DNA from: a virus
Lineage: Duplodnaviria; Heunggongvirae; Uroviricota; Caudoviricetes
Virus record (IMG/VR): IMGVR_UViG_2974695582_000001
Location: 46,918-110,917 of that record
Length of the DNA: 64,000 nt
Reading direction: 5' to 3' (one strand)
Below, piece by piece: positions 2,916-51,224 of this stretch. The translations under genes and the position numbers were made by a program. The notes below the pieces were generated by a model. It did not search any database and was not told the DNA's origin. It worked only from the letters and a program-made list of their open reading frames with translations. Positions within the stretch are counted from its first letter, which is position 1. Every line of letters begins with the position of its first letter.

Positions 2916-5900
2916 TTGTTAGGAGAAAAGGCTTTGGCTTATACAGAACTGCATTTGCACGATTACTATTCAACTCTGGACGGATTGAATTCTCCAGACG
3001 AGTACATGATTCGTGCCAAGGAGTTGGGAATGACCCATCTCGCACAGACAAATCACGGTACCCTGCTTGGTCACCGTGAATTCCAGAAGTCTGCAAAGAA
3101 CGCTGGAATTGTTCCGATTCTCGGTGTTGAGGCGTACATTTCGCCTACCGACCGATTCGACCGACGCGCAAAGAATAAGCGTACTGACGGAACGAACGTG
3201 TACAATCACCTTATCATTCTTGCTCAGGGTGAGACGGGAATGAAGACTCTTCAGACTCTCAATGAGAAGGCGTGGACTGAGGGATTCTATAACAAGCCAC
3301 GTATTGATATGGAGCTTCTTGAAGAGCACAATGATGGCCTTATCATTCTTTCTGGCTGTCTTAACTCGATGCTGTGCAAGGCAATTGAGGCGGGTAACGT
3401 TGAAGAGGCTCACAGGATTGCCCTTGAATTTCGGCGGATTCTTGGTGACAGGTTTTACATTGAAGTTCAGGCTCACAACCCTGTGTATATGAACCAGGCT
3501 CTATTCGAGATTGCTGACAAGAATGGAATCAAGCCTGTTGTTACTTCTGACTGTCACTATGCTCGTAAGGAAGACCTTTGGATTGAAGAGGCTATGCTCA
3601 TTCTGTCTACGAATCCAAAGTTCAGTCGAGACTTTGACTTTACCAAGTCTCAGAAGATGGACATGCTTGAGCGGTTCAATTATCTGTATCCAGACAGGGT
3701 CATGACCTTTGAGGAAATCCAGATTTACCTAAAGTCTGCTGAGGAGCAGCTTACGGATTTCTCAAGGAATGGTTTCGAGCGAGAGGATATTGTCAAGAAT
3801 ACAGAGGAAATTGCTTCTCGAATTGAGGAATACGCTTTCCATCAGAACCTTGACCTTCTTCCTAAGCCTAAGAATGGTAATCCAGACGAGTTGCTAGAAA
3901 AGAAGGCTCGGGCGGGTTTGCGTAATCGTGGTCTGGATAAGGACCCGGTATATGTAGAAAGGCTTGAGGAAGAGCTTGAAATCATCAAGTCAAAGGATTT
4001 CTCGACGTACTTCCTTGTTGTGGCTAATACGATTAAGTGGGCAAAGGACAATGAGATTCTTGTTGGTCCCGGCCGTGGTTCTGGTGCTGGCTCTCTTGTG
4101 AACTATGCTCTTGGAATTACAGAAGTTGACCCGATTAAGTGGGGTCTTCTGTTCTTCCGATTCATTAACCCAGAGCGAAATGACTTCCCTGACATTGATA
4201 CCGACTTTGAGGACCGTAGGCGTAACGAAATCAAGGACTATCTTACGAGAAAGTTCAAGCACGTTGCCTCTATTGCCACGGTTGGTTATTTCAAGGATAA
4301 GGGTGTTGTTCGAGACGCAGCACGAGTGTTCCGAATTGACCCGGCTGAAACAGATGAGGCGTTGAAGACCATCGCCACTTTTGAGGAGTATCAGACTTCA
4401 AAGGCTACTGAGGGGTATCGTAAGAAGTATCCTGAGGTAGAGAAGTTGGCGAATGAGCTTCGTGGTCGTATTCGTCAGACTGGTATGCACGCTGCTGGTA
4501 TTGTTATCTCTAAGGAGCCGATTGCTAACTTTGCTCCGATTGAGACTGCTGCTGACCCAAAGGATAAGACGGCTCCCCGTAGGGCTCTTGTGGCTCTGGA
4601 TATGAATGAGGCTGCTGACCTTGGTCTGATTAAGTTGGATGCACTTGGGCTTAAGACCCTTTCCGTGATGGGTGATGCGGTGAAGATGATTGAGCAGCGT
4701 ACTGGTCGAAAGATTGTCCTGACTGACATTCCTCTTGAGGATAAGAAGGTTTATGACATGATTTCGGCGGGTCACACAAAGGGTATCTTCCAGTGTGAGG
4801 CTGGTCCGTATACAGGACTCATCATGAATATGGGTGGTATCTCCTCCTTCGCTGAACTTGCAGCCTCTAACGCTCTTGTTCGTCCGGGTGCGATGAATAC
4901 CATTGGTGCTGAGTATATCGCTCGAAAGAATGGTGAATCTCCGGTTACGTATCCTCACGAGGATATGAAGTGGTTTACTGAAGAGACTTATGGTGAGATT
5001 CTTTATCAGGAGCAGGTTATGCTTACGATGACCGAACTTGCCGGAATGTCTATGGCAACCGCTGATAAGGTTCGTAAGATTATTGGTAAGAAGAAGGATG
5101 TCAGTGAATTTGAGCAGTACAAGGCTGAATTCGTTGAGGGTGCTTCAAAGAAGGTTTCTAAGGCTGTGGCTGAAAAGCTGTGGCACGACTTTGAGGCTCA
5201 CGCTGGTTACTCCTTTAACAAGAGTCACGCCGTGGCTTATTCCATGATTTCTTACTGGACTGCATGGCTCAAGACGTACTACCCAATTGAGTTCGTTTAC
5301 GCTATGATGAAGAACGAGAACGATAAGGATGTCCGTACCACTTACCTCATTGAGGCTAAGCGAATGGGTGTGAAGGTCAAGTTGCCTCACGTTAACCATT
5401 CCGACCTTGACTTCTCTGTGGAAGAGGATGGTATTCGATTCGGTCTTGCCAACATCAAGTTCATTTCGACCAATCTTGGTACCAAGTTGATTGAGGCTCG
5501 TCCTTATGAAAACTATGCTGCGCTTGAGGCGAAGGTTACTGAGAAGGGCAATGGGCTTAACATCAGGGTTCTCAAGGCTCTGAATGCAATTGGTGCAGCC
5601 ACGTTTGCTGATAATCCTAAGCGAGGAGATGAGCGACACTTCTTCTATGAGTATCTGAGTATTCCCGCTTTCGAAATTCCTGACATGCCTGAGGGTGTTC
5701 GTAATCAGTTCACTCCATTGAGCGCTTTCCGTGAAGATGAAACCAGTATCATTATGGGAATGGTCAAGAATGTGAAGCGTGGAAAGGGATGGTCTCGTAT
5801 TGAAGTTGTTGATGAAACTGGTGAGGCTTCATTCTTCCATAAGGAAGATACTCTGATTGCACCAGGTAATATGTACGCAATGCTGATTGCCAATAAGCGA

Positions 5901-9524: not shown

Positions 9525-10307
9525 TTGAAGCGAGAGATTGTACAGGGTCTCAAGTTTCGTAAGCAGCCTAAGGGATTTGACGCCAATGAGTTGGCCGATA
9601 TCCTTGAGGCTGCTTATCTGAAGCAGCGACGCCCTGATAAGCATACACAAAAGAAGACCTTTTCCCCGAGTACAATTGGTTATGGGCATGGAACATGTCC
9701 TCGATATTGGTTCTTGGCATTTACTGGCGGGATGTTCATTGATTCCGTTGATGCTCTAGGGATTGCCAATATGTCCAATGGTACTCAGGCTCACGAACGT
9801 ATTGAGAAGTTGTTCGATGATTCAGGTATCCGCCTTGGTAATGAAATTGAAGTCACGATGTCTGACCCGCCTATTCGTGGGTTTGCTGATGTTGAAATCA
9901 ATTGGAAGGGCGAAGAGATTATTGGTGAAATCAAGACAACAAGGCAGGAAGCGTTCCTTGTTCGTCAGGCTACAATGAAGCCTACACCGAATCACCTGTT
10001 TCAGATTCTCATTTACATGAAGGCCCGTGAGCGTAGAATGGGATTCCTTTTGTATGAGAATAAAAATTCTCAGGAATTCCTTATTCTCCCAATTGAGATG
10101 AATGAAGCCAATTCAAAGATTATTGATAATGCACTGAATTGGATGCGAGAAACTTATAAGGCATACACAGAGGGAACGGTTCCTAATCGGCCGTTGCAGA
10201 AGCGCAGCAAGATTTGTAAGGCGTGCCCCTTCTATGAGTGGTGCTGGAGTGACGATTCTCCTGAGGGAACTATTGATATTCCTGTAATGGAGGTTCCAAA
10301 GATTTGA
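9525..10307 (+). CDS. PD-(D/E)xK nuclease, Cas4/RecB-like exonuclease with C-terminal Cys cluster
   Basis: TTG start after AAGGAAA. Motifs GFADVEI / EIKTT / QILIYMKA. C-terminal CKACPFYEWC cluster (Fe-S type). Confidence 0.6.
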   Translation: MKREIVQGLKFRKQPKGFDANELADILEAAYLKQRRPDKHTQKKTFSPSTIGYGHGTCPRYWFLAFTGGMFIDSVDALGIANMSNGTQAHERIEKLFDDSGIRLGNEIEVTMSDPPIRGFADVEINWKGEEIIGEIKTTRQEAFLVRQATMKPTPNHLFQILIYMKARERRMGFLLYENKNSQEFLILPIEMNEANSKIIDNALNWMRETYKAYTEGTVPNRPLQKRSKICKACPFYEWCWSDDSPEGTIDIPVMEVPKI

Positions 10308-20589: not shown

Positions 20590-20713
20590 TTTCGGGTCGG
20601 CAGGATGAGGGTTATCTAACCTACTATAAATTACACGCAATGGTAATTCCTGGTGGATTCCAGGGAGTGTGGTGACTATAACACTATCTCCCTCGCCAAT
20701 CACATATCCGAAT
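20590..20713 (+). ncRNA. Y RNA-like ncRNA (Ro60-binding type), locus 1
   Basis: 5' ttCGGGTCGGcaGGATGAGGGTTATCTAACc resembles the hY RNA GGUCCGAUGGUAGUGGGUUAUC motif. 3' cCCTCgccaatcaCATATCCGaat can pair with the 5' end. A TTGACA-N-TAGTAA promoter sits at 20550-20578. Confidence 0.5.
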
Positions 20714-20717
20714 ACAT

Positions 20718-21687: not shown

Positions 21688-21849
21688 TAGCCCCTAAAGA
21701 TTTCGGGTCGGATGTTCTTTGGTTAACTCAATTGGAATGAAAAGTTCTGGGTTCGAATCCCAGCGGGTCCACTCTTGGGCCTGTAGTTTAACTGGCAAAA
21801 CTAAAACCCGAGGAACGCTTATATATCCGTGATTATCTTTAGGGGCTAA
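21688..21849 (+). ncRNA. YrlA-like Y RNA with embedded tRNA-like module, locus 4
   Basis: 13-bp terminal stem TAGCCCCTAAAGA/TCTTTAGGGGCTA. Inner TTCGGGTCGGATG...GGTTAACTCAATTGGAATG Y motif. tRNA-like T-arm ctgggttcgaatcccag followed by cgggtcc. 3' partner tATATATCCGtga. Followed by AAGCTT. Confidence 0.55.
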
Positions 21850-22498: not shown

Positions 22499-24115
22499 AT
22501 GTCTAATGCACTTGGTAAGTACGCCGGTAGCCAGAAGGCTGCAAAGGTTGCGACTCCTCAGACAAAGCGGACTCCGGGCCGTACGGATGAGGTAAAGAAC
22601 AACGCGGGCGGGTTTGTGTTTAAGGTTGACGACAAGTCTCGACTTGAGCGTTTCCTTATCCTTGGTACTGATAAGGGTACCTACTACGTTGGTGAGCAGA
22701 AGTTGACGGCTCAGAACGTTTCTTTCCTGAAGAACCTGGTTCAGAAGGATGAGCGTCTGGTTGTGGACACGCTTGTTGACGTTTCTGTAAATGGTCGTGC
22801 GCTTAAGAATTCTCCTGCGCTGTTCGCTCTGGCCACGGTTATGACGGAGGGCAAGGATAAGGCTTACGCTCGTGAGGCCGTTCAGAAGGTTGCTCGTACT
22901 TCTACCCACCTTTTCGAGTACGCACAGTACATCGATGACCTGGGTGGTTGGGGTCGTGCAAAGCGTCGTTCTGTCGCTGAGTGGTACGAGAACAAGTCTC
23001 TGGATACGCTTGCGTATCAGGCTGTTAAGTACCGTCAGAGGAATGGTTGGACGCACCGTGACCTGTTCCGTCTGTCTCACCCTCAGGGTGTGGACCAGGG
23101 TGTTGGTAACTTCATCCTTGGTAAGGACGCAGAGTCTGAGGTGGAAATTCTTAAGGGCTTCGCTGAGATGCAGTCTGCGACTTCGGTCAAGGACGTTATC
23201 AAGACGCTGGAGACTTTTAAGAACCTTCCGTGGGAGACCATCCCTACTCAGTTCCTCAAGGACGTGAAGGTGTGGAAGACTCTCTTCTACAATGGTCAGC
23301 TTCGTGGCCAGGCTCTCATTCGCAACATCACTCGACTCGCTCGAATTGGTGCGTTTGATGACATGGTTTTCGCAACTGACTACGCGAATGCAATTGCTAA
23401 CCAGGAAATGATTCAGAAGACTCGTCTTCACCCAATCAACTTCCTGAATGCGGTTGTTGTTCATGAGTACGGTCAGATTGACCGTAACGGCTACAGCATG
23501 TGGAGTGCCGGACGTAAGAAGGATTGGAAGTCTAATGGAAAGATTGTGGATGCTCTCAATGAGGGATTCCACATGGCGTTCAAGGCTGTCGAGCCTTCTG
23601 GCAAGAGGACTCTTGTTGCGACTGACGTTTCTGGCTCAATGAGTCAGAGCGCTATCGGACTCGACCTTTCTTGTGCTCAGGTTTCTGCGGCTGTTGCTAT
23701 GACGGTTGCTCGCACCGAGCCTTACAGTGACATTGTTGGCTTCTCTAGCAGCATTGTTGACTTGGGTATTACCGCAAAGAGTTCTTTTGCCGACGCAATG
23801 CGTAAGGTGAGTAACAGGAACTTCGGTGGTACGGATGCGGCTGCTGCAATTAAGTACGCTGACCAGAAGGGAATTCAGGTTGACACCTTCGTCGTTATCA
23901 CTGATAACGAGACGTGGGGCGGAAGCCAGAAGCCTTTCCAGGCACTTAAGCAGTACCGTCAGAAGACCGGAATCGATGCGCGTCTAGCGGTTCTTGGTGT
24001 TGCGTCTACGGACTTCAGCATCGCTGACCCAACTGACCGTGGTATGATGGACTTCGTTGGTTTCGATGCCAATGCGCCAAGGGCTCTTGCAGACTTCAGC
24101 GCTGGTCGTATCTGA
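22499..24115 (+). CDS. rsr: Ro60/TROVE-domain ribonucleoprotein (Rsr ortholog) with C-terminal vWA/MIDAS
   Basis: Direct similarity to the Ro60 TROVE core: RLERFLILGTDKGTYYVGEQKL versus human [22 protein letters not shown], plus PALFALA. vWA MIDAS motif VATDVSGSMS. About 538 aa from ATG 22499. Confidence 0.9.
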   Translation: MSNALGKYAGSQKAAKVATPQTKRTPGRTDEVKNNAGGFVFKVDDKSRLERFLILGTDKGTYYVGEQKLTAQNVSFLKNLVQKDERLVVDTLVDVSVNGRALKNSPALFALATVMTEGKDKAYAREAVQKVARTSTHLFEYAQYIDDLGGWGRAKRRSVAEWYENKSLDTLAYQAVKYRQRNGWTHRDLFRLSHPQGVDQGVGNFILGKDAESEVEILKGFAEMQSATSVKDVIKTLETFKNLPWETIPTQFLKDVKVWKTLFYNGQLRGQALIRNITRLARIGAFDDMVFATDYANAIANQEMIQKTRLHPINFLNAVVVHEYGQIDRNGYSMWSAGRKKDWKSNGKIVDALNEGFHMAFKAVEPSGKRTLVATDVSGSMSQSAIGLDLSCAQVSAAVAMTVARTEPYSDIVGFSSSIVDLGITAKSSFADAMRKVSNRNFGGTDAAAAIKYADQKGIQVDTFVVITDNETWGGSQKPFQALKQYRQKTGIDARLAVLGVASTDFSIADPTDRGMMDFVGFDANAPRALADFSAGRI

Positions 24116-30415: not shown

Positions 30416-30720
30416 CTTCAGTTCTGGTAAAAATCCAGTCTGAGTTTATACAGAGTTTGGAAGGTAAGCCGGTTCGATTCCGGCAGACTGATGGGTCAGG
30501 GCGCGGTTCGAGTCCGCTATATAAATATGGGTGCAAATAGGGTAGCTCCCGCCGAGTCAGGTTCGAATCCTGGCACTCTGTATAAAGCTTACAAGACACG
30601 GGGGCTTGGCCCGTCCTCCAATCATGAGTCTTGGGTCTCAGTCCAATCGAGATTTAGAGTTAACGGGCTTGCCAGGGGTAGCTTGGTTTCGACTTTGCTG
30701 GATGACATATGAACGCAACC
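30416..30720 (+). other. cluster of degenerate tRNA fragments / T-arm-like hairpins (no intact cloverleaf)
   Basis: Four GGTTCGA(A/T/G)TCC T-arm hairpins, at 30470, 30497, 30560 and about 30690. One has a perfect 7-bp acceptor-like pairing (cagtctg/cagactg) but only about 25 nt between acceptor and T-arm. Confidence 0.4.
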
Positions 30721-30883
30721 CTTCTTGGTCAAAGAAGTAAAACGGGCCAAAACAATAAATGCAAACTCTAAGAATGCATCTGCATACGCCCTTGCGGCGT
30801 AAGAGCCGGGTTTGTCGTTGACCTAGGAACAGAACAACGACTAGACAAAATGTGTAGATAATGTGTAAGACCCTTCAGTGTGA

Positions 30884-30912
30884 TTGACATGGTTGTGTAA
30901 CGGTTATATGCT
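30884..30912 (+). promoter_or_regulatory. promoter TTGACA-N17-TATGCT
   Basis: Drives the downstream small ORF. The 5'UTR contains a T-arm-like hairpin gcgggttcgactcccgc. Confidence 0.45.
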
Positions 30913-30968
30913 AGATAGTAAAGGACGCGGGTTCGACTCCCGCCTACTCCACACAGAAAGATAAGGTA

Positions 30969-33390: not shown

Positions 33391-33648
33391 ATGAAGAGTC
33401 GTAAGAAGTTTCTCTGCCTTGATTGTAAGGTGGACACGGGTAAGATTGGTGAGCACTACATGCTTGTTGATGAGACCTGGCACTTGACTGGTCTCCGAAA
33501 GTATGGGATGCTCTGTATTGAACACGTTGAGAGCCGGATTGGAAGAGAGCTTGTTCCGTCTGACTTCAACAACAGTTATTTGAACAATGCCCGAACGGGC
33601 ATCATTAGCCAGAAGCTTGCTAGCAGGATGGGCCTTCTGGTATCATAG
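33391..33648 (+). CDS. hypothetical protein
   Basis: 85-aa ORF after AAGGAGAA. Contains CLDCK. Confidence 0.45.
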   Translation: MKSRKKFLCLDCKVDTGKIGEHYMLVDETWHLTGLRKYGMLCIEHVESRIGRELVPSDFNNSYLNNARTGIISQKLASRMGLLVS

Positions 33649-33656
33649 ATTTATCG

Positions 33657-33810
33657 TCCCTGTAGCTTAAAAGGAAGAGCGCAGTAAAAACGGAGACTGG
33701 TCATGATAGGATGGTTGCAGAAGCACCGAATGGCTTTAGCGGGTCTGTAGGGAAGCGCGTTATCCAAGCCTATCTAACATTGGGTGTGAGTTCGAATCTC
33801 ACCAGGGACA
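33657..33810 (+). ncRNA. tRNA-like RNA with about 80-nt insertion (YrlA-like Y RNA candidate, or intron-containing tRNA)
   Basis: Perfect 7-bp acceptor gtccctg/cagggac. D-arm tagcttaaaaggaagagc. T-arm gtgag-ttcgaat-ctcac. The insert carries GATAGGATGG and CCTATCTAACATTGG, which are Y-motif-like. Confidence 0.45.
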
Positions 33811-33981
33811 CATGGGTATTTTAAGAGTTGGTGCACAGGTAATTGTATGTGAAAATCATACACACAATGGTAGAAATTGGAAGGACGTAACGGGATACGT
33901 TTTGATGATTACCCGCAAGACAGTGACAATTTCAACTTCTCATGGTCAGATTAACCTTCCTAGAAATAAGGTGGTTGCAGT

Positions 33982-35770: not shown

Positions 35771-36232
35771 ATGACAGAGAAAAGATGTAGCTTTCCAGAT
35801 TGCGAATACCCCTTCCTAGCGAAGGGGTATTGCAACAATCACTATCAGCAATCAAGGTCTGGTAGAGAGCTTGTTCCAGTAAGGCCAAGGTCAAAAAATG
35901 GTTCTGGAACGATTAACACAGATGGCTATAGAATCGTCTATAAGCCTGGCCATCCCAATTGCCAATCAAATGGTAGGATTGCCGAACATCGTTGGGTCAT
36001 GTCGGAAAGTCTTGGAAGACCTCTTGAGGAGTATGAAGAGGTTCATCACAAGAATGGTGACAGACTTGACAATCGCCTTGAGAATCTGGAACTATGGGTT
36101 CGTAGGCAGCCGCCTGGACAACGGGCGGAAGACTTGCTAGAGTGGGCATACGAAATCATTAGACGATATGGAGATGAAAATGACTCACGTTTCAGCAATC
36201 TTTTCAGTGGACGACCTGAACAAGGCAATTGA
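35771..36232 (+). CDS. HNH homing endonuclease (HNH_3-like)
   Basis: GYRIVYKPGHP...GRIAEHRWVM...EVHHKNGDRLDNRLENLEL. Confidence 0.65.
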   Translation: MTEKRCSFPDCEYPFLAKGYCNNHYQQSRSGRELVPVRPRSKNGSGTINTDGYRIVYKPGHPNCQSNGRIAEHRWVMSESLGRPLEEYEEVHHKNGDRLDNRLENLELWVRRQPPGQRAEDLLEWAYEIIRRYGDENDSRFSNLFSGRPEQGN

Positions 36233-37247
36233 GGACGGTTGGGTCAGGGTCCAGACGAATGAGGATAATACCCTCTCTATTTACAATTATACAGAAGCGA
36301 GCCAGTATAAGCGTTACTGGAATGATGTGACGCTGAATTGTCGGGGTTTGATTCTCGACAGCTACAATCACATTGTGGCACGTCCTTGGAAGAAGTTCTT
36401 CAATTTCGGTGAGCGTCCGCTTCTGTTTTCTACGGATGACCCAGTTGAGGTAACGGATAAGAAGGATGGCTCATTGGGTATTCTTTACCAGCACCCAATG
36501 ACTGGTGATTACCGAATTGCAACTCGTGGCTCTTTTCTTTCTGACCAGGCAATTCACGCAACAAACGTCTGGGATAACAAGTACAGCCACATTGCAGACC
36601 CGTGGCACGGAGTAACCTTCTTGTTTGAGATTGTGTACCCTGAGAACCGCATTGTTTTGGATTATGGTGAGACTGATGACCTTATCCTTCTTGGTGCAGT
36701 TCAGAATCAGTACGGTTGGTACTACGGTCCCAACGAGGCTGCGGGTATGCTCAACTGGACTGGCCCGGTCACAGAGGTCTTTGAGTACCGCACCACGAAC
36801 GACTGCTTCAAGGTGCATCGCTCAAATGCTGAGGGTCTGGTAATTCGGTGCGGTAGTGAGATGGTCAAGTTGAAGCAGGAGGACTACGTAGCTTTGCACA
36901 AGCTAGTTACGGGTCTGAACGAGCGGGCTGTGTGGGAGCGCTTGATGGCAGGTGAGAGTCGTGATACTATCTGTTCATCGCTTCCGGATGAGTTCCACGG
37001 ATTTGTTGACAAGGTGGCCGATGAGCTGGAGACTCAGTTCAAGGAGATTTACCACTCTTCTCACGTGAGTTACTGCGAGATTCTTAACAAGATGCCTGGA
37101 AAGTCGGCACTTCCTAAGAATGAGTGGCGTAAGTTGTTTGCATCATATGCGGTAAAGATGCCCAACTACGACCTTATATTCAATTACTTGGACAACCGTC
37201 CGGTTGCTGAGTCAATTTGGAAGATGATTCGTCCGAAGGGTGAGTAA
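36180..37247 (+). CDS. ATP-dependent RNA ligase, Rnl1 (T4 RnlA)-like
   Basis: Nucleotidyltransferase motif I VTDKKDGSLGILY (KxDGSL as in T4 Rnl1). 355 aa. A Pnk-like kinase lies downstream. Confidence 0.6.
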   Translation: MTHVSAIFSVDDLNKAIEDGWVRVQTNEDNTLSIYNYTEASQYKRYWNDVTLNCRGLILDSYNHIVARPWKKFFNFGERPLLFSTDDPVEVTDKKDGSLGILYQHPMTGDYRIATRGSFLSDQAIHATNVWDNKYSHIADPWHGVTFLFEIVYPENRIVLDYGETDDLILLGAVQNQYGWYYGPNEAAGMLNWTGPVTEVFEYRTTNDCFKVHRSNAEGLVIRCGSEMVKLKQEDYVALHKLVTGLNERAVWERLMAGESRDTICSSLPDEFHGFVDKVADELETQFKEIYHSSHVSYCEILNKMPGKSALPKNEWRKLFASYAVKMPNYDLIFNYLDNRPVAESIWKMIRPKGE

Positions 37248-51112: not shown

Positions 51113-51121
51113 AGATATATC

Positions 51122-51224
51122 GGGTCGGACGGATAGGGTTATCTAACAATCAATTGATGATGAGCCTTCGGGCAACCCTGCGGCGGGTATAGCCGCATCT
51201 CCCTTCCTCAACATATCCGATGTA
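51122..51224 (+). ncRNA. Y RNA-like ncRNA, locus 5
   Basis: atCGGGTCGGACGGATAGGGTTATCTAACAATCAATTGATGatgag resembles hY4 GGUCCGAUGGUAGUGGGUUAUC and hY1 ...AAUUGAUUG. Has an internal gcc-ttcg-ggc hairpin. 3' ACATATCCGATG pairs with the 5' TCGGA. Confidence 0.55.

What the first reader, a model, noticed from the sequence alone, without database searches (positions are those of the whole stretch)
33657..33810. 154-nt tRNA-like RNA with an ~80-nt insert carrying Y-like motifs
The element has a perfect 7-bp acceptor stem (GTCCCTG/CAGGGAC), a canonical D-arm and a T-arm. But the anticodon-arm position holds an ~80-nt insert containing GATAGGATGG and CCTATCTAACATTGG, which echo the Y-RNA GGATAGGGTTATCTAACAAT motif. 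It could be a YrlA-type tRNA mimic in which the anticodon arm is replaced by a Ro-binding stem. Alternatively it is an intron-containing tRNA.
Basis: seen in the sequence. Interest (0 to 1): 0.7.

Follow-up and report, generated by a model that had tools for sequence, protein, structure and literature searches.

The report
tRNA-shaped phage RNA with conserved insert
This is a real, unannotated 155-nt RNA gene in Streptomyces phage Comrade that looks like a tRNA but cannot decode, and it belongs to an apparently undescribed RNA family that often sits beside Ro60/Y-RNA genes.

Summary
The element is real. It spans window 33656-33810, one base longer at the 5' end than reported, in Streptomyces phage Comrade, where it is unannotated. 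ARAGORN and Rfam both miss it.

It has a 7-bp acceptor stem, a D arm and a T arm. The 15:48 tertiary pair co-varies. The anticodon-arm position is not replaced: it holds a 5-bp hairpin with an 8-nt loop, AAAACGGA, that lacks U33. The extra 86 nt (33700-33785) lie in the variable-arm position. The core motifs inside them, UUGC-RGAW-GCACCG and AGGGAAGCGCG, are almost invariant across members.

Their resemblance to Y RNA is chance.

I found over 30 homologues in phage tRNA arrays, plus four in Myxococcota genomes. Compensatory changes support every tRNA-like stem.

It is neither an intron-containing tRNA nor a YrlA member by model or topology. However, every cultured phage that carries it encodes a Ro60/TROVE protein. 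In one metagenomic lineage it sits within a Y-RNA array, 45-320 nt upstream of the TROVE gene.

Best reading: a new, non-decoding tRNA mimic, probably linked to phage Ro/Y-RNA biology. Its function is unproven.

The parts
33656..33662 (+). Acceptor stem, 5' strand (GTCCCTG)
   Evidence: Pairs with 33803-33809. Five of 7 pairs show compensatory changes, and 100% of cells are paired on 27 homologues.
33665..33680 (+). D arm: stem GCTT/GAGC, loop AAAAGGAA with G18 G19
   Evidence: A15 (33670) co-varies with position 48 (33785): GC 15, AU 10, GU 1.
33682..33699 (+). Hairpin A at the anticodon-arm position: 5-bp stem (the last pair is A.G in Comrade) and conserved 8-nt loop AAAACGGA. No U33 and no usable anticodon.
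   Evidence: All five stem pairs show compensatory changes. The loop is conserved in nearly all members.
33705..33710 (+). Helix H1, 5' strand (GATAGG).
   Evidence: Six of 6 pairs show compensatory changes, and 99.4% of cells are paired.
33711..33768 (+). Conserved core module: GG-UUGC AGAA GCA-CCG, hairpin H4 (33729-33748), then AGGGAAGCGCG (33749-33759) and a U-rich strand ending in CC. Pairing inside the core is unresolved.
   Evidence: The UUGC-RGAW-GCACCG and AGGGAAGCGCG motifs are almost invariant, from GC-rich actinophages to AT-rich large-phage contigs and Myxococcota. H4 and its expansions co-vary by eye. RNAalifold offers a different set of inner pairings.
33687..33692 (+). Loop bases AAAACG, proposed to form a pseudoknot with CGTTAT at 33758-33763
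   Evidence: There are 4-8 complementary bases in every member. L263b carries AAAAGCG with CGCUUUU, a matched G and C change. LuckySocke A>G gives G.U and L057 C>U gives U.G. On the 27-sequence alignment no pair changes on both sides. This pairing is a hypothesis.
33769..33774 (+). Helix H1, 3' strand (CCTATC).
33786..33802 (+). T arm: GTGAG TTCGAAT CTCAC
   Evidence: Four of 5 pairs show compensatory changes, and 100% of cells are paired.
33803..33810 (+). Acceptor stem 3' strand (CAGGGAC) plus discriminator A. No CCA is encoded.
   Evidence: Relatives L057 and L272 encode A-CCA, and L262 and L282 encode G-CCA.
22499..24115 (+). Phage Ro60-like (TROVE + vWA) gene, the candidate protein partner. 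The link is inferred.
   Evidence: Annotated as a Ro-like RNA-binding protein. Pfam vWA_Ro60 3e-56 and TROVE 3e-38.

Best explanation
The element is the gene for a stable, non-decoding, tRNA-shaped RNA.

Shown:
- It keeps the full upper architecture of a tRNA: acceptor stem, D arm, T arm and the 15:48 tertiary pair.
- Its anticodon-arm hairpin carries a conserved 8-nt loop, AAAACGGA, with no U33.
- About 86 nt are inserted at the variable-arm position. They are closed by a co-varying helix and contain nearly invariant core motifs.
- The family recurs in phage tRNA arrays and in Ro60/Y-RNA loci.

Inferred:
- It is probably cut out of the polycistronic transcript by RNase P at the 5' end and by 3' processing plus CCA addition, like the neighbouring tRNAs.
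- The anticodon-like loop probably pairs with the U-rich strand of the core. This pseudoknot would lock the lower half of the molecule into a compact module.
- The RNA probably works as an adaptor. The tRNA-like top gives stability and access to tRNA-handling enzymes, and the invariant module binds a partner.
- The most likely setting is the phage Ro60/TROVE-Y RNA system, as an extra Y-RNA-like cofactor with the opposite end closure to YrlA.
For: Structure:
- Compensatory changes occur in acceptor 5/7, hairpin A 5/5, H1 6/6 and T arm 4/5 pairs.
- The Levitt pair is GC 15, AU 10 and GU 1.
- 93.8% of cells are paired, against 38-47% for slid controls.
- RNAalifold independently recovers the same five stems.

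Family:
- A covariance model scores true members at 55-180 bits and ordinary tRNAs at 40 bits or less.
- The window holds one copy.
- More than 30 members lie in IMG/VR phage contigs of 40-450 kb, nearly always inside tRNA arrays.
- Four members are in Myxococcota genomes.
- Four relatives encode a 3' CCA.

Not decoding:
- ARAGORN makes no call.
- The Rfam tRNA model scores 19 bits against a threshold of 29.
- Comrade already has tRNAs for all 20 amino acids.

Ro link:
- All cultured phages with the element encode a TROVE protein.
- A TROVE gene lies 45-320 nt downstream in L063, L259 and L264, 3 kb away in Alone3/L261, and 4.5 kb away in L273.
- In L063 the element sits within an array of Y-RNA-like units directly upstream of TROVE.
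- Sub-threshold, full-length YrlA matches also lie in the same arrays in L278, L284 and L263.
- Precedent: M. smegmatis YrlA is cut by RNase P and receives CCA in vivo (PMC4201824).
Against: - No expression, processing or binding data exist.
- The Ro link is not obligate. BRock, Atuin and VanLee have the TROVE gene, but no element lies within 6-8 kb of it.
- BLAST with the element found no match in BE2 phages such as Jay2Jay, which do have Ro.
- In Kela the TROVE gene is 36 kb away on the other strand.
- The Myxococcota copies have no TROVE gene within 8 kb.
- TROVE genes are common in large tRNA-rich actinophages, so co-occurrence alone is weak evidence.
- The core motifs are the same whether the phage has a type-1 or a type-2 TROVE protein. 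In contrast, the canonical Y-RNA stems differ by lineage: GGGUCGGA in Comrade and GGUGCGAAG in L063. This argues that the core binds something more universal than Ro.
- The YrlA Ro-binding motif GNCGAAN0-1G is not conserved in the family.
- The pseudoknot rests on one matched change and two wobble-compatible changes.
Confidence: 0.5

Rival explanations
1. A Ro-independent tRNA decoy or sponge. The tRNA-like top and the invariant module together bind a universal host tRNA-handling factor, or a tRNA-targeting defence nuclease. This would protect or reprogram the phage's own tRNA supply.
For: - The element lies in tRNA arrays in almost all phage lineages.
- The core is invariant across very different hosts and across both TROVE types.
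- Some TROVE-encoding phages lack it.
- The Myxococcota copies have no TROVE gene nearby.
- RNA ligase and polynucleotide kinase genes lie 2.4-3.8 kb downstream in Comrade.
Against: - No specific target can be named.
- The anticodon-like loop resembles no tRNA anticodon loop.
- The immediate adjacency to TROVE and Y-RNA arrays in the L063 lineage is left unexplained.
Confidence: 0.25
2. An aminoacylated tRNA-like molecule. It would either donate an amino acid outside the ribosome or act as an odd decoder, for example an 8-nt-loop frameshift suppressor.
For: - The acceptor stem, T arm and elbow are intact.
- The discriminator is A in most members.
- CCA is encoded in some members.
Against: - The acceptor-stem sequence is not conserved, so it carries no stem identity set. 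There is no G3.U70 (Comrade has C3-G70).
- The loop lacks U33 and is probably paired.
- A variable-arm insertion of 86 nt here, and up to about 200 nt in the largest members, is unlikely to fit the ribosome. That last point is inference.
- Comrade has a full tRNA set.
Confidence: 0.08
3. A true member of the YrlA family of bacterial Y RNAs.
For: It has a tRNA-like domain and a genomic association with Ro60.
Against: - The Rfam YrlA model gives no match at E <= 10 on the element. The same model finds other candidates in the same genomes.
- The order of the arms and the position of the free ends are opposite to YrlA.
- The Ro-binding motif is not conserved.
Confidence: 0.03
4. An intron-containing tRNA gene whose ~80-nt insert is spliced out.
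For: The flanks look like tRNA halves, and a weak Rfam tRNA match covers 33741-33810.
Against: - No group I or other ribozyme match was found at E <= 10.
- The insert is far smaller than any known self-splicing intron. That point is from established knowledge.
- Removing it would leave an arm with an 8-nt AAAACGGA loop and no anticodon.
- The core motifs of the insert are the best-conserved sequence in the element.
- No amino acid lacks a tRNA in this phage.
Confidence: 0.02

Closest known systems
YrlA (bacterial and phage Y RNA with a tRNA-like domain; Rfam RF02553; Chen et al. 2014, PMC4201824)
   Same: Both are non-decoding tRNA mimics with D and T arms and an acceptor-like stem. Both are encoded near Ro60/TROVE genes, including in phages. 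M. smegmatis YrlA is cut by RNase P and receives CCA, which gives the same open acceptor end.
   Different: - In YrlA the free ends lie in the Ro-binding stem, which leaves the tRNA-like domain at the anticodon-stem position, and the T arm precedes the D arm.
- Here the ends are in the acceptor stem, an anticodon-arm hairpin is kept, and the large module leaves from the variable-arm position.
- The element has no RF02553 match and no conserved GNCGAAN0-1G motif.
tmRNA
   Same: Both combine a tRNA-like acceptor/T-arm end with a large internal functional domain containing pseudoknots. Both are encoded by large phages next to tRNA arrays; Comrade has one at 30675-30954. tmRNA exists in one-piece and permuted forms, which parallels the proposed relation to YrlA.
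   Different: The element has no reading frame and no G3.U70. It has a full D arm and an anticodon-arm hairpin. It has no Rfam tmRNA match.
Class II tRNAs, tRNA-Sec and allo-tRNAs (long variable arm)
   Same: The extra helix leaves the tRNA core at the variable-arm position, and the tertiary core, including the 15:48 pair, is canonical.
   Different: Their variable arms are simple hairpins of about 10-25 nt, and they keep a 7-nt anticodon loop. This element has an 86-nt insertion here, and up to about 200 nt in relatives, with conserved core motifs and no anticodon.
Phage T4 stable RNAs, species 1 and 2 (rnaC, rnaD). This comparison is from my own recollection and was not checked here.
   Same: They are small stable RNAs of unknown function encoded inside a phage tRNA cluster and processed with the tRNAs.
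   Different: No sequence or structural comparison was possible with these tools.

Membership tests
Canonical tRNA | Acceptor stem, D arm, T arm and tertiary 15:48 pair | tested here: met
   All stems co-vary, and 15:48 is GC 15, AU 10 and GU 1.
Canonical tRNA | 7-nt anticodon loop with U33 and a readable anticodon; detected by tRNA finders | tested here: not met
   The loop is AAAACGGA (8 nt, A at position 33). ARAGORN makes no call. Rfam tRNA scores 19.1 bits against a gathering score of 29, and only on a misaligned sub-region.
YrlA (RF02553) | Match to the family covariance model | tested here: not met
   No YrlA match at E <= 10 in 33500-33950. The same model hits 21742-21802 in the window and other loci.
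YrlA (RF02553) | 5' and 3' ends form the Ro-binding stem; arm order is T arm, acceptor hairpin, D arm | tested here: not met
   The ends lie in the acceptor stem, and the order is D arm, hairpin A, module, T arm. The YrlA description is from PMC4201824.
YrlA (RF02553) | Conserved GNCGAAN0-1G Ro-binding motif | tested here: not met
   Short-type members have ACCGAAUG. Long-type members have CACCGGGA and L057/L107 have CACCGGAC at the same place.
YrlA (RF02553) | Encoded close to a Ro60/TROVE gene | tested here: inconclusive
   It is adjacent in L063, L259 and L264, within 3-10 kb in Alone3, L273 and Comrade, 36 kb away in Kela, and absent from the flanks of many contigs and of the Myxococcota loci.
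YrlA (RF02553) | Bound by Ro60/Rsr | not testable with these tools
   This needs immunoprecipitation or a gel-shift assay.
Intron-containing tRNA (group I intron) | Group I catalytic core | tested here: not met
   No intron or ribozyme family matched at E <= 10. The inserted sequence is 86 nt.
Intron-containing tRNA (group I intron) | Removing the insert restores a normal anticodon arm | tested here: not met
   The insert lies 3' of an intact hairpin that has no anticodon.
tmRNA | Model match, G3.U70 and a tag reading frame | tested here: not met
   No tmRNA hit on the element. Position 3:70 is C-G in Comrade. The phage's real tmRNA is at 30675-30954.
Metazoan-type Y RNA / sbRNA | Conserved bulged Ro-binding stem formed by the RNA ends | tested here: not met
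   No Y_RNA or sbRNA match on the element. The element at 51116-51223 does match sbRNA family RF01656 at E = 7.5e-4.

The most novel reading that the evidence does not exclude
This is a previously undescribed, widespread class of Ro60-associated RNA. It would be a Y-RNA-like adaptor built on a complete, open-ended tRNA scaffold, in effect the opposite closure to YrlA. [quoted passage not shown] Its invariant, pseudoknotted variable-arm module would dock a universal host factor such as PNPase or another RNA-decay or tRNA-repair enzyme. Phages would use it to redirect host RNA surveillance during infection.
Probability: 0.3. Interest if true: 0.85.

Novelty: new variant of a known kind. Interest (0 to 1): 0.7.

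Why it matters
- Phage tRNA arrays are usually annotated as lists of tRNAs. This shows that they also hide a conserved, structured, non-decoding RNA that standard finders miss.
- The family spans very different phages and reaches bacterial chromosomes. Its core motifs are as conserved as a ribozyme or riboswitch core, which implies a strong and general function.
- Its recurring presence in Ro60/Y-RNA loci gives a concrete, testable candidate for a new Ro partner.
- It may also help answer what the tRNA-like modules of bacterial Y RNAs actually bind.
- The alignment and covariance model built here could seed a new Rfam family.

Tried and rejected
1. Missing tRNA-Thr with an intron. Rejected: Comrade has three tRNA-Thr genes elsewhere, and the element contains no conserved Thr anticodon.
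2. Y-RNA motif homology. Rejected by shuffles and by co-variation of the helix.
3. Single-sequence folding. The MFE structure breaks the D arm and is no better than shuffles, so it was not used.
4. Pairing of GCGC in the D-arm region with GCGC in the core, as in the MFE structure. Rejected: Kela and Quantum change one side only.
5. Resemblance of the core to the 23S rRNA L11-binding (GTPase-centre) region. This holds only for Comrade's own AGAAGC loop, which is not conserved in the family. It was recalled from memory and was dropped.
6. The loose pattern AGGGAAGCGCGTN{3,8}CC.
7. The genome scan. Forty-one of 45 hits are chance matches in GC-rich coding sequence.
8. Search for a protein shared by the flanks of many members. 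Only HNH endonucleases recur, and no conserved neighbours appear in Myxococcota.
9. A CGAA-type Ro motif in the large inserts of some members. Too short and too inconsistent to count.
10. Literature searches for this family found nothing. Two reviews could not be opened.

Full report
**Source and setting.** The window is Streptomyces phage Comrade (NC_048728.1); window position equals record position minus 46917. The window holds 31 tRNA genes and a tmRNA. The element lies between two small ORFs:
- gp135 ends at 33648, 7 nt before the element.
- gp136 starts at 33812, 2 nt after it.

It is not annotated in Comrade or its relatives. ARAGORN and Rfam at gathering scores do not report it. A permissive Rfam scan of 33500-33950 gives only a 19-bit tRNA match to a sub-region, and nothing for YrlA, Y RNA, tmRNA, introns or ribozymes.

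**Checking the observation.** The acceptor stem, D arm and T arm are as described. Three points need correction:
- The first acceptor base is 33656, so the element is 155 nt.
- The anticodon-arm position is not replaced. Bases 33682-33699 form a hairpin with loop AAAACGGA.
- The extra sequence (33700-33785) lies between that hairpin and the T arm, at the variable-arm position.

The two 'Y-like motifs' exist. The only shared word with the Y-like elements of this window is the 8-mer TATCTAAC. It occurs 3 times against 1.37 expected, which is not significant.

**Homologues.** BLAST against cultured phages finds the element in three unrelated groups of Streptomyces phages:
- the Gilsonvirus/BE group, which includes Comrade;
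- the ~115-kb Alone3, LuckySocke, GiJojo and pSt2308 group;
- the ~185-kb Kela, JustBecause, Quantum, Kradal, EhyElimayoE and Satis group.

Pattern scans of IMG/VR with the conserved core give more than 20 further members. They come from contigs of about 40 to 450 kb, both GC-rich and AT-rich, and nearly all lie inside tRNA arrays.

A genome scan returned 45 hits, of which 41 are chance matches in GC-rich coding sequence. Four are true members in Myxococcota MAGs, one of them on a 5.4-Mb contig.

A covariance model built from nine short members scores family members at 55-180 bits and ordinary tRNAs at 40 bits or less. It finds exactly one copy in the window.

**Structure.**
- *Short-member alignment (nine sequences).* 94.3% of cells are paired, against 33-48% when partners are slid.
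- *Model-guided alignment (27 sequences).* 93.8% are paired, against 38-47% for slid controls. Compensatory changes occur in:
  - 5 of 7 acceptor pairs;
  - 5 of 5 pairs of the anticodon-position hairpin;
  - 6 of 6 pairs of helix H1;
  - 4 of 5 T-arm pairs.
- *Caveat.* The model-guided alignment leans towards the structure. The MAFFT alignment and RNAalifold give the same five stems.
- *Tertiary pair.* The 15:48 pair co-varies (GC 15, AU 10, GU 1), which argues for a true L-shaped tRNA fold.
- *Core.* Inside H1 lies a core whose motifs (UUGC-RGAW-GCACCG and AGGGAAGCGCG followed by a U-rich run and CC) hardly vary. Between them is helix H4. It is a single hairpin in Comrade-type members, a three-way junction in Gilson-type members, and larger still in others. 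By eye H4 co-varies richly: CCGGG/CCCGG, UCGGG/CCCGA, UUGGG/CCCAA, CCGAG/CUCGG, ACAGGG/UUCUGU, ACAACG/CGUUGU. Some members carry a further insert of about 70-135 nt between the anticodon-position hairpin and the core.
- *Unresolved pairings.* Because the core motifs are invariant, their internal pairings cannot be settled. My model and RNAalifold differ.
- *Pseudoknot.* The loop AAAACG is complementary to the CGUUUU strand after AGGGAAGCG in every member. One member has a matched G and C change, and two have wobble-compatible changes. The formal count shows no double changes. I treat the pseudoknot as likely but unproven.

**What it is not.**
- *Not a decoding tRNA.* The loop has 8 nt and no U33. 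The phage already has tRNAs for all 20 amino acids, including three for Thr outside the window.
- *Not an intron-containing tRNA.* There is no intron core. The anticodon-position hairpin is intact. The core motifs of the insert are the most conserved sequence in the element.
- *Not a decayed pseudogene.* Conservation and co-variation span very distant phages.
- *Not a YrlA family member.* There is no model match, although the model finds a candidate at 21742-21802 just upstream of Comrade's Ro gene. The free ends and arm order are opposite to YrlA. The GNCGAAN0-1G motif is not conserved.

**Link to Ro60.** Comrade encodes a Ro60-like protein at 22499-24115. The other two cultured groups encode a divergent TROVE + vWA protein. 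It shares 24% identity with Comrade's over 241 residues and scores Pfam TROVE 6e-14. So every cultured phage found to carry the element has a TROVE gene.

In metagenomic contigs the divergent TROVE gene lies:

| Contig | Distance from the element |
|---|---|
| L259, L264 | 44-45 nt downstream |
| L063 | about 320 nt downstream |
| L261 | 3 kb |
| L273 | 4.5 kb |

In L063 the element sits in the middle of an array of Y-RNA-like units. Their stems read CUGGUGCG(C/A)AG ... CUUGAUCUCAG, and one unit gives a full-length sub-threshold YrlA match of 41.9 bits. Full-length sub-threshold YrlA matches also lie in the same arrays in L259, L278, L284 (53.5 bits) and L263.

Evidence against an obligate link:
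- BRock, Atuin and VanLee have the TROVE gene but no element near it.
- The BE2 phages that have Ro were not among the BLAST matches to the element.
- Kela's TROVE gene is 36 kb away.
- The Myxococcota copies have no TROVE gene within 8 kb.
- The core motifs are the same with both TROVE types, while the canonical Y stems differ by lineage.

**Mechanism.**
- *Shown:* a conserved tRNA-shaped RNA with a variable-arm module, and its recurrent placement in tRNA arrays and Ro/Y-RNA loci.
- *Inferred:*
  - excision by RNase P and 3' processing with CCA addition, supported by the encoded CCA in four relatives and by the M. smegmatis YrlA precedent;
  - sequestration of the anticodon-like loop in a pseudoknot;
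  - an adaptor role in which the invariant module binds a partner.

I rate the structural claims at about 0.9 and the Ro-linked adaptor role at about 0.35-0.4. The main rival is a Ro-independent decoy for a universal tRNA-binding factor.

**Novelty.** Rfam 15 has no family for it. Full-text searches found no description. It is best filed as a new variant of the known kind 'tRNA-mimicking non-coding RNA', closest in concept to YrlA and tmRNA.

Noticed in passing
window 51116-51223 and about 20590-20717: Two sister elements share UCGGGUCGG(A/C)..GGAU(G)AGGGUUAUCUAAC ... AUCUCCCU..ACAUAUCCGA. They lie directly upstream of tRNA-Gly and tRNA-Ile. The first matches the nematode Y-RNA homologue family RF01656 (28.7 bits, E = 7.5e-4). 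They are likely canonical Y RNAs for the phage Ro protein and are unannotated.
   Followed up: partly
window about 21703-21833: A YrlA-like RNA with a T arm, an acceptor-like hairpin and a D arm, flanked by GGGUCGGAUG ... AUAUCCGUGA. It lies about 670 nt upstream of the Ro-like gene. The Rfam YrlA match at 21742-21802 scores 28 bits, below threshold. It is unannotated.
   Followed up: partly
window 33803-33814: The downstream ORF gp136 starts at 33812, 2 nt after the element. Its likely ribosome-binding site (AGGGA) is inside the acceptor 3' strand, so processing of the RNA would cut the mRNA right at this gene's start.
   Followed up: no
window 36168-37247 and downstream (record 84577-85002): RNA ligase and polynucleotide kinase genes, a T4-like tRNA repair pair, sit in the same tRNA-rich region. 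A second RNA ligase lies at record 104253-104900.
   Followed up: no
L264 about 950-1055; L259 1052-1133 (minus strand): A ~105-nt tRNA-like RNA with an 11-12-bp acceptor-like stem and a T arm lies directly upstream of the family member. It gives a weak mascRNA-type match of 32.6 bits. Its identity is unknown.
   Followed up: no
L006 220-394 (Alone3); also GiJojo, pSt2308 and LuckySocke: A conserved ~170-nt stretch (…GGGAGUACCGCUA…UAGUAGGCACGAGGGAUGAGACC…) lies between tRNA-Asp and the element. It may be another structured RNA.
   Followed up: no
L263 (minus strand), reverse-complement positions 4346-4585 and 9740-9976: Two divergent copies of the family lie in one phage tRNA array.
   Followed up: partly
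L285 127-223, 297-400 and 405-546; L273 5483-5632; L282 6362-6509: These are tRNA-like hits of 97-150 nt. L285 127-223 scores 55.7 bits as tRNA. They are either tRNAs with long inserts or further unusual tRNA-like RNAs in phage arrays.
   Followed up: no
L288 11147-12733 (Alone3 gene 37) and relatives: This is a second, divergent clade of phage TROVE + vWA proteins that tblastn with Comrade's Ro does not detect. Relatives occur in Gordonia, Arthrobacter, Xanthomonas, Brevundimonas, crAss-like Bacteroides phages and Thermus phage phiLo.
   Followed up: partly
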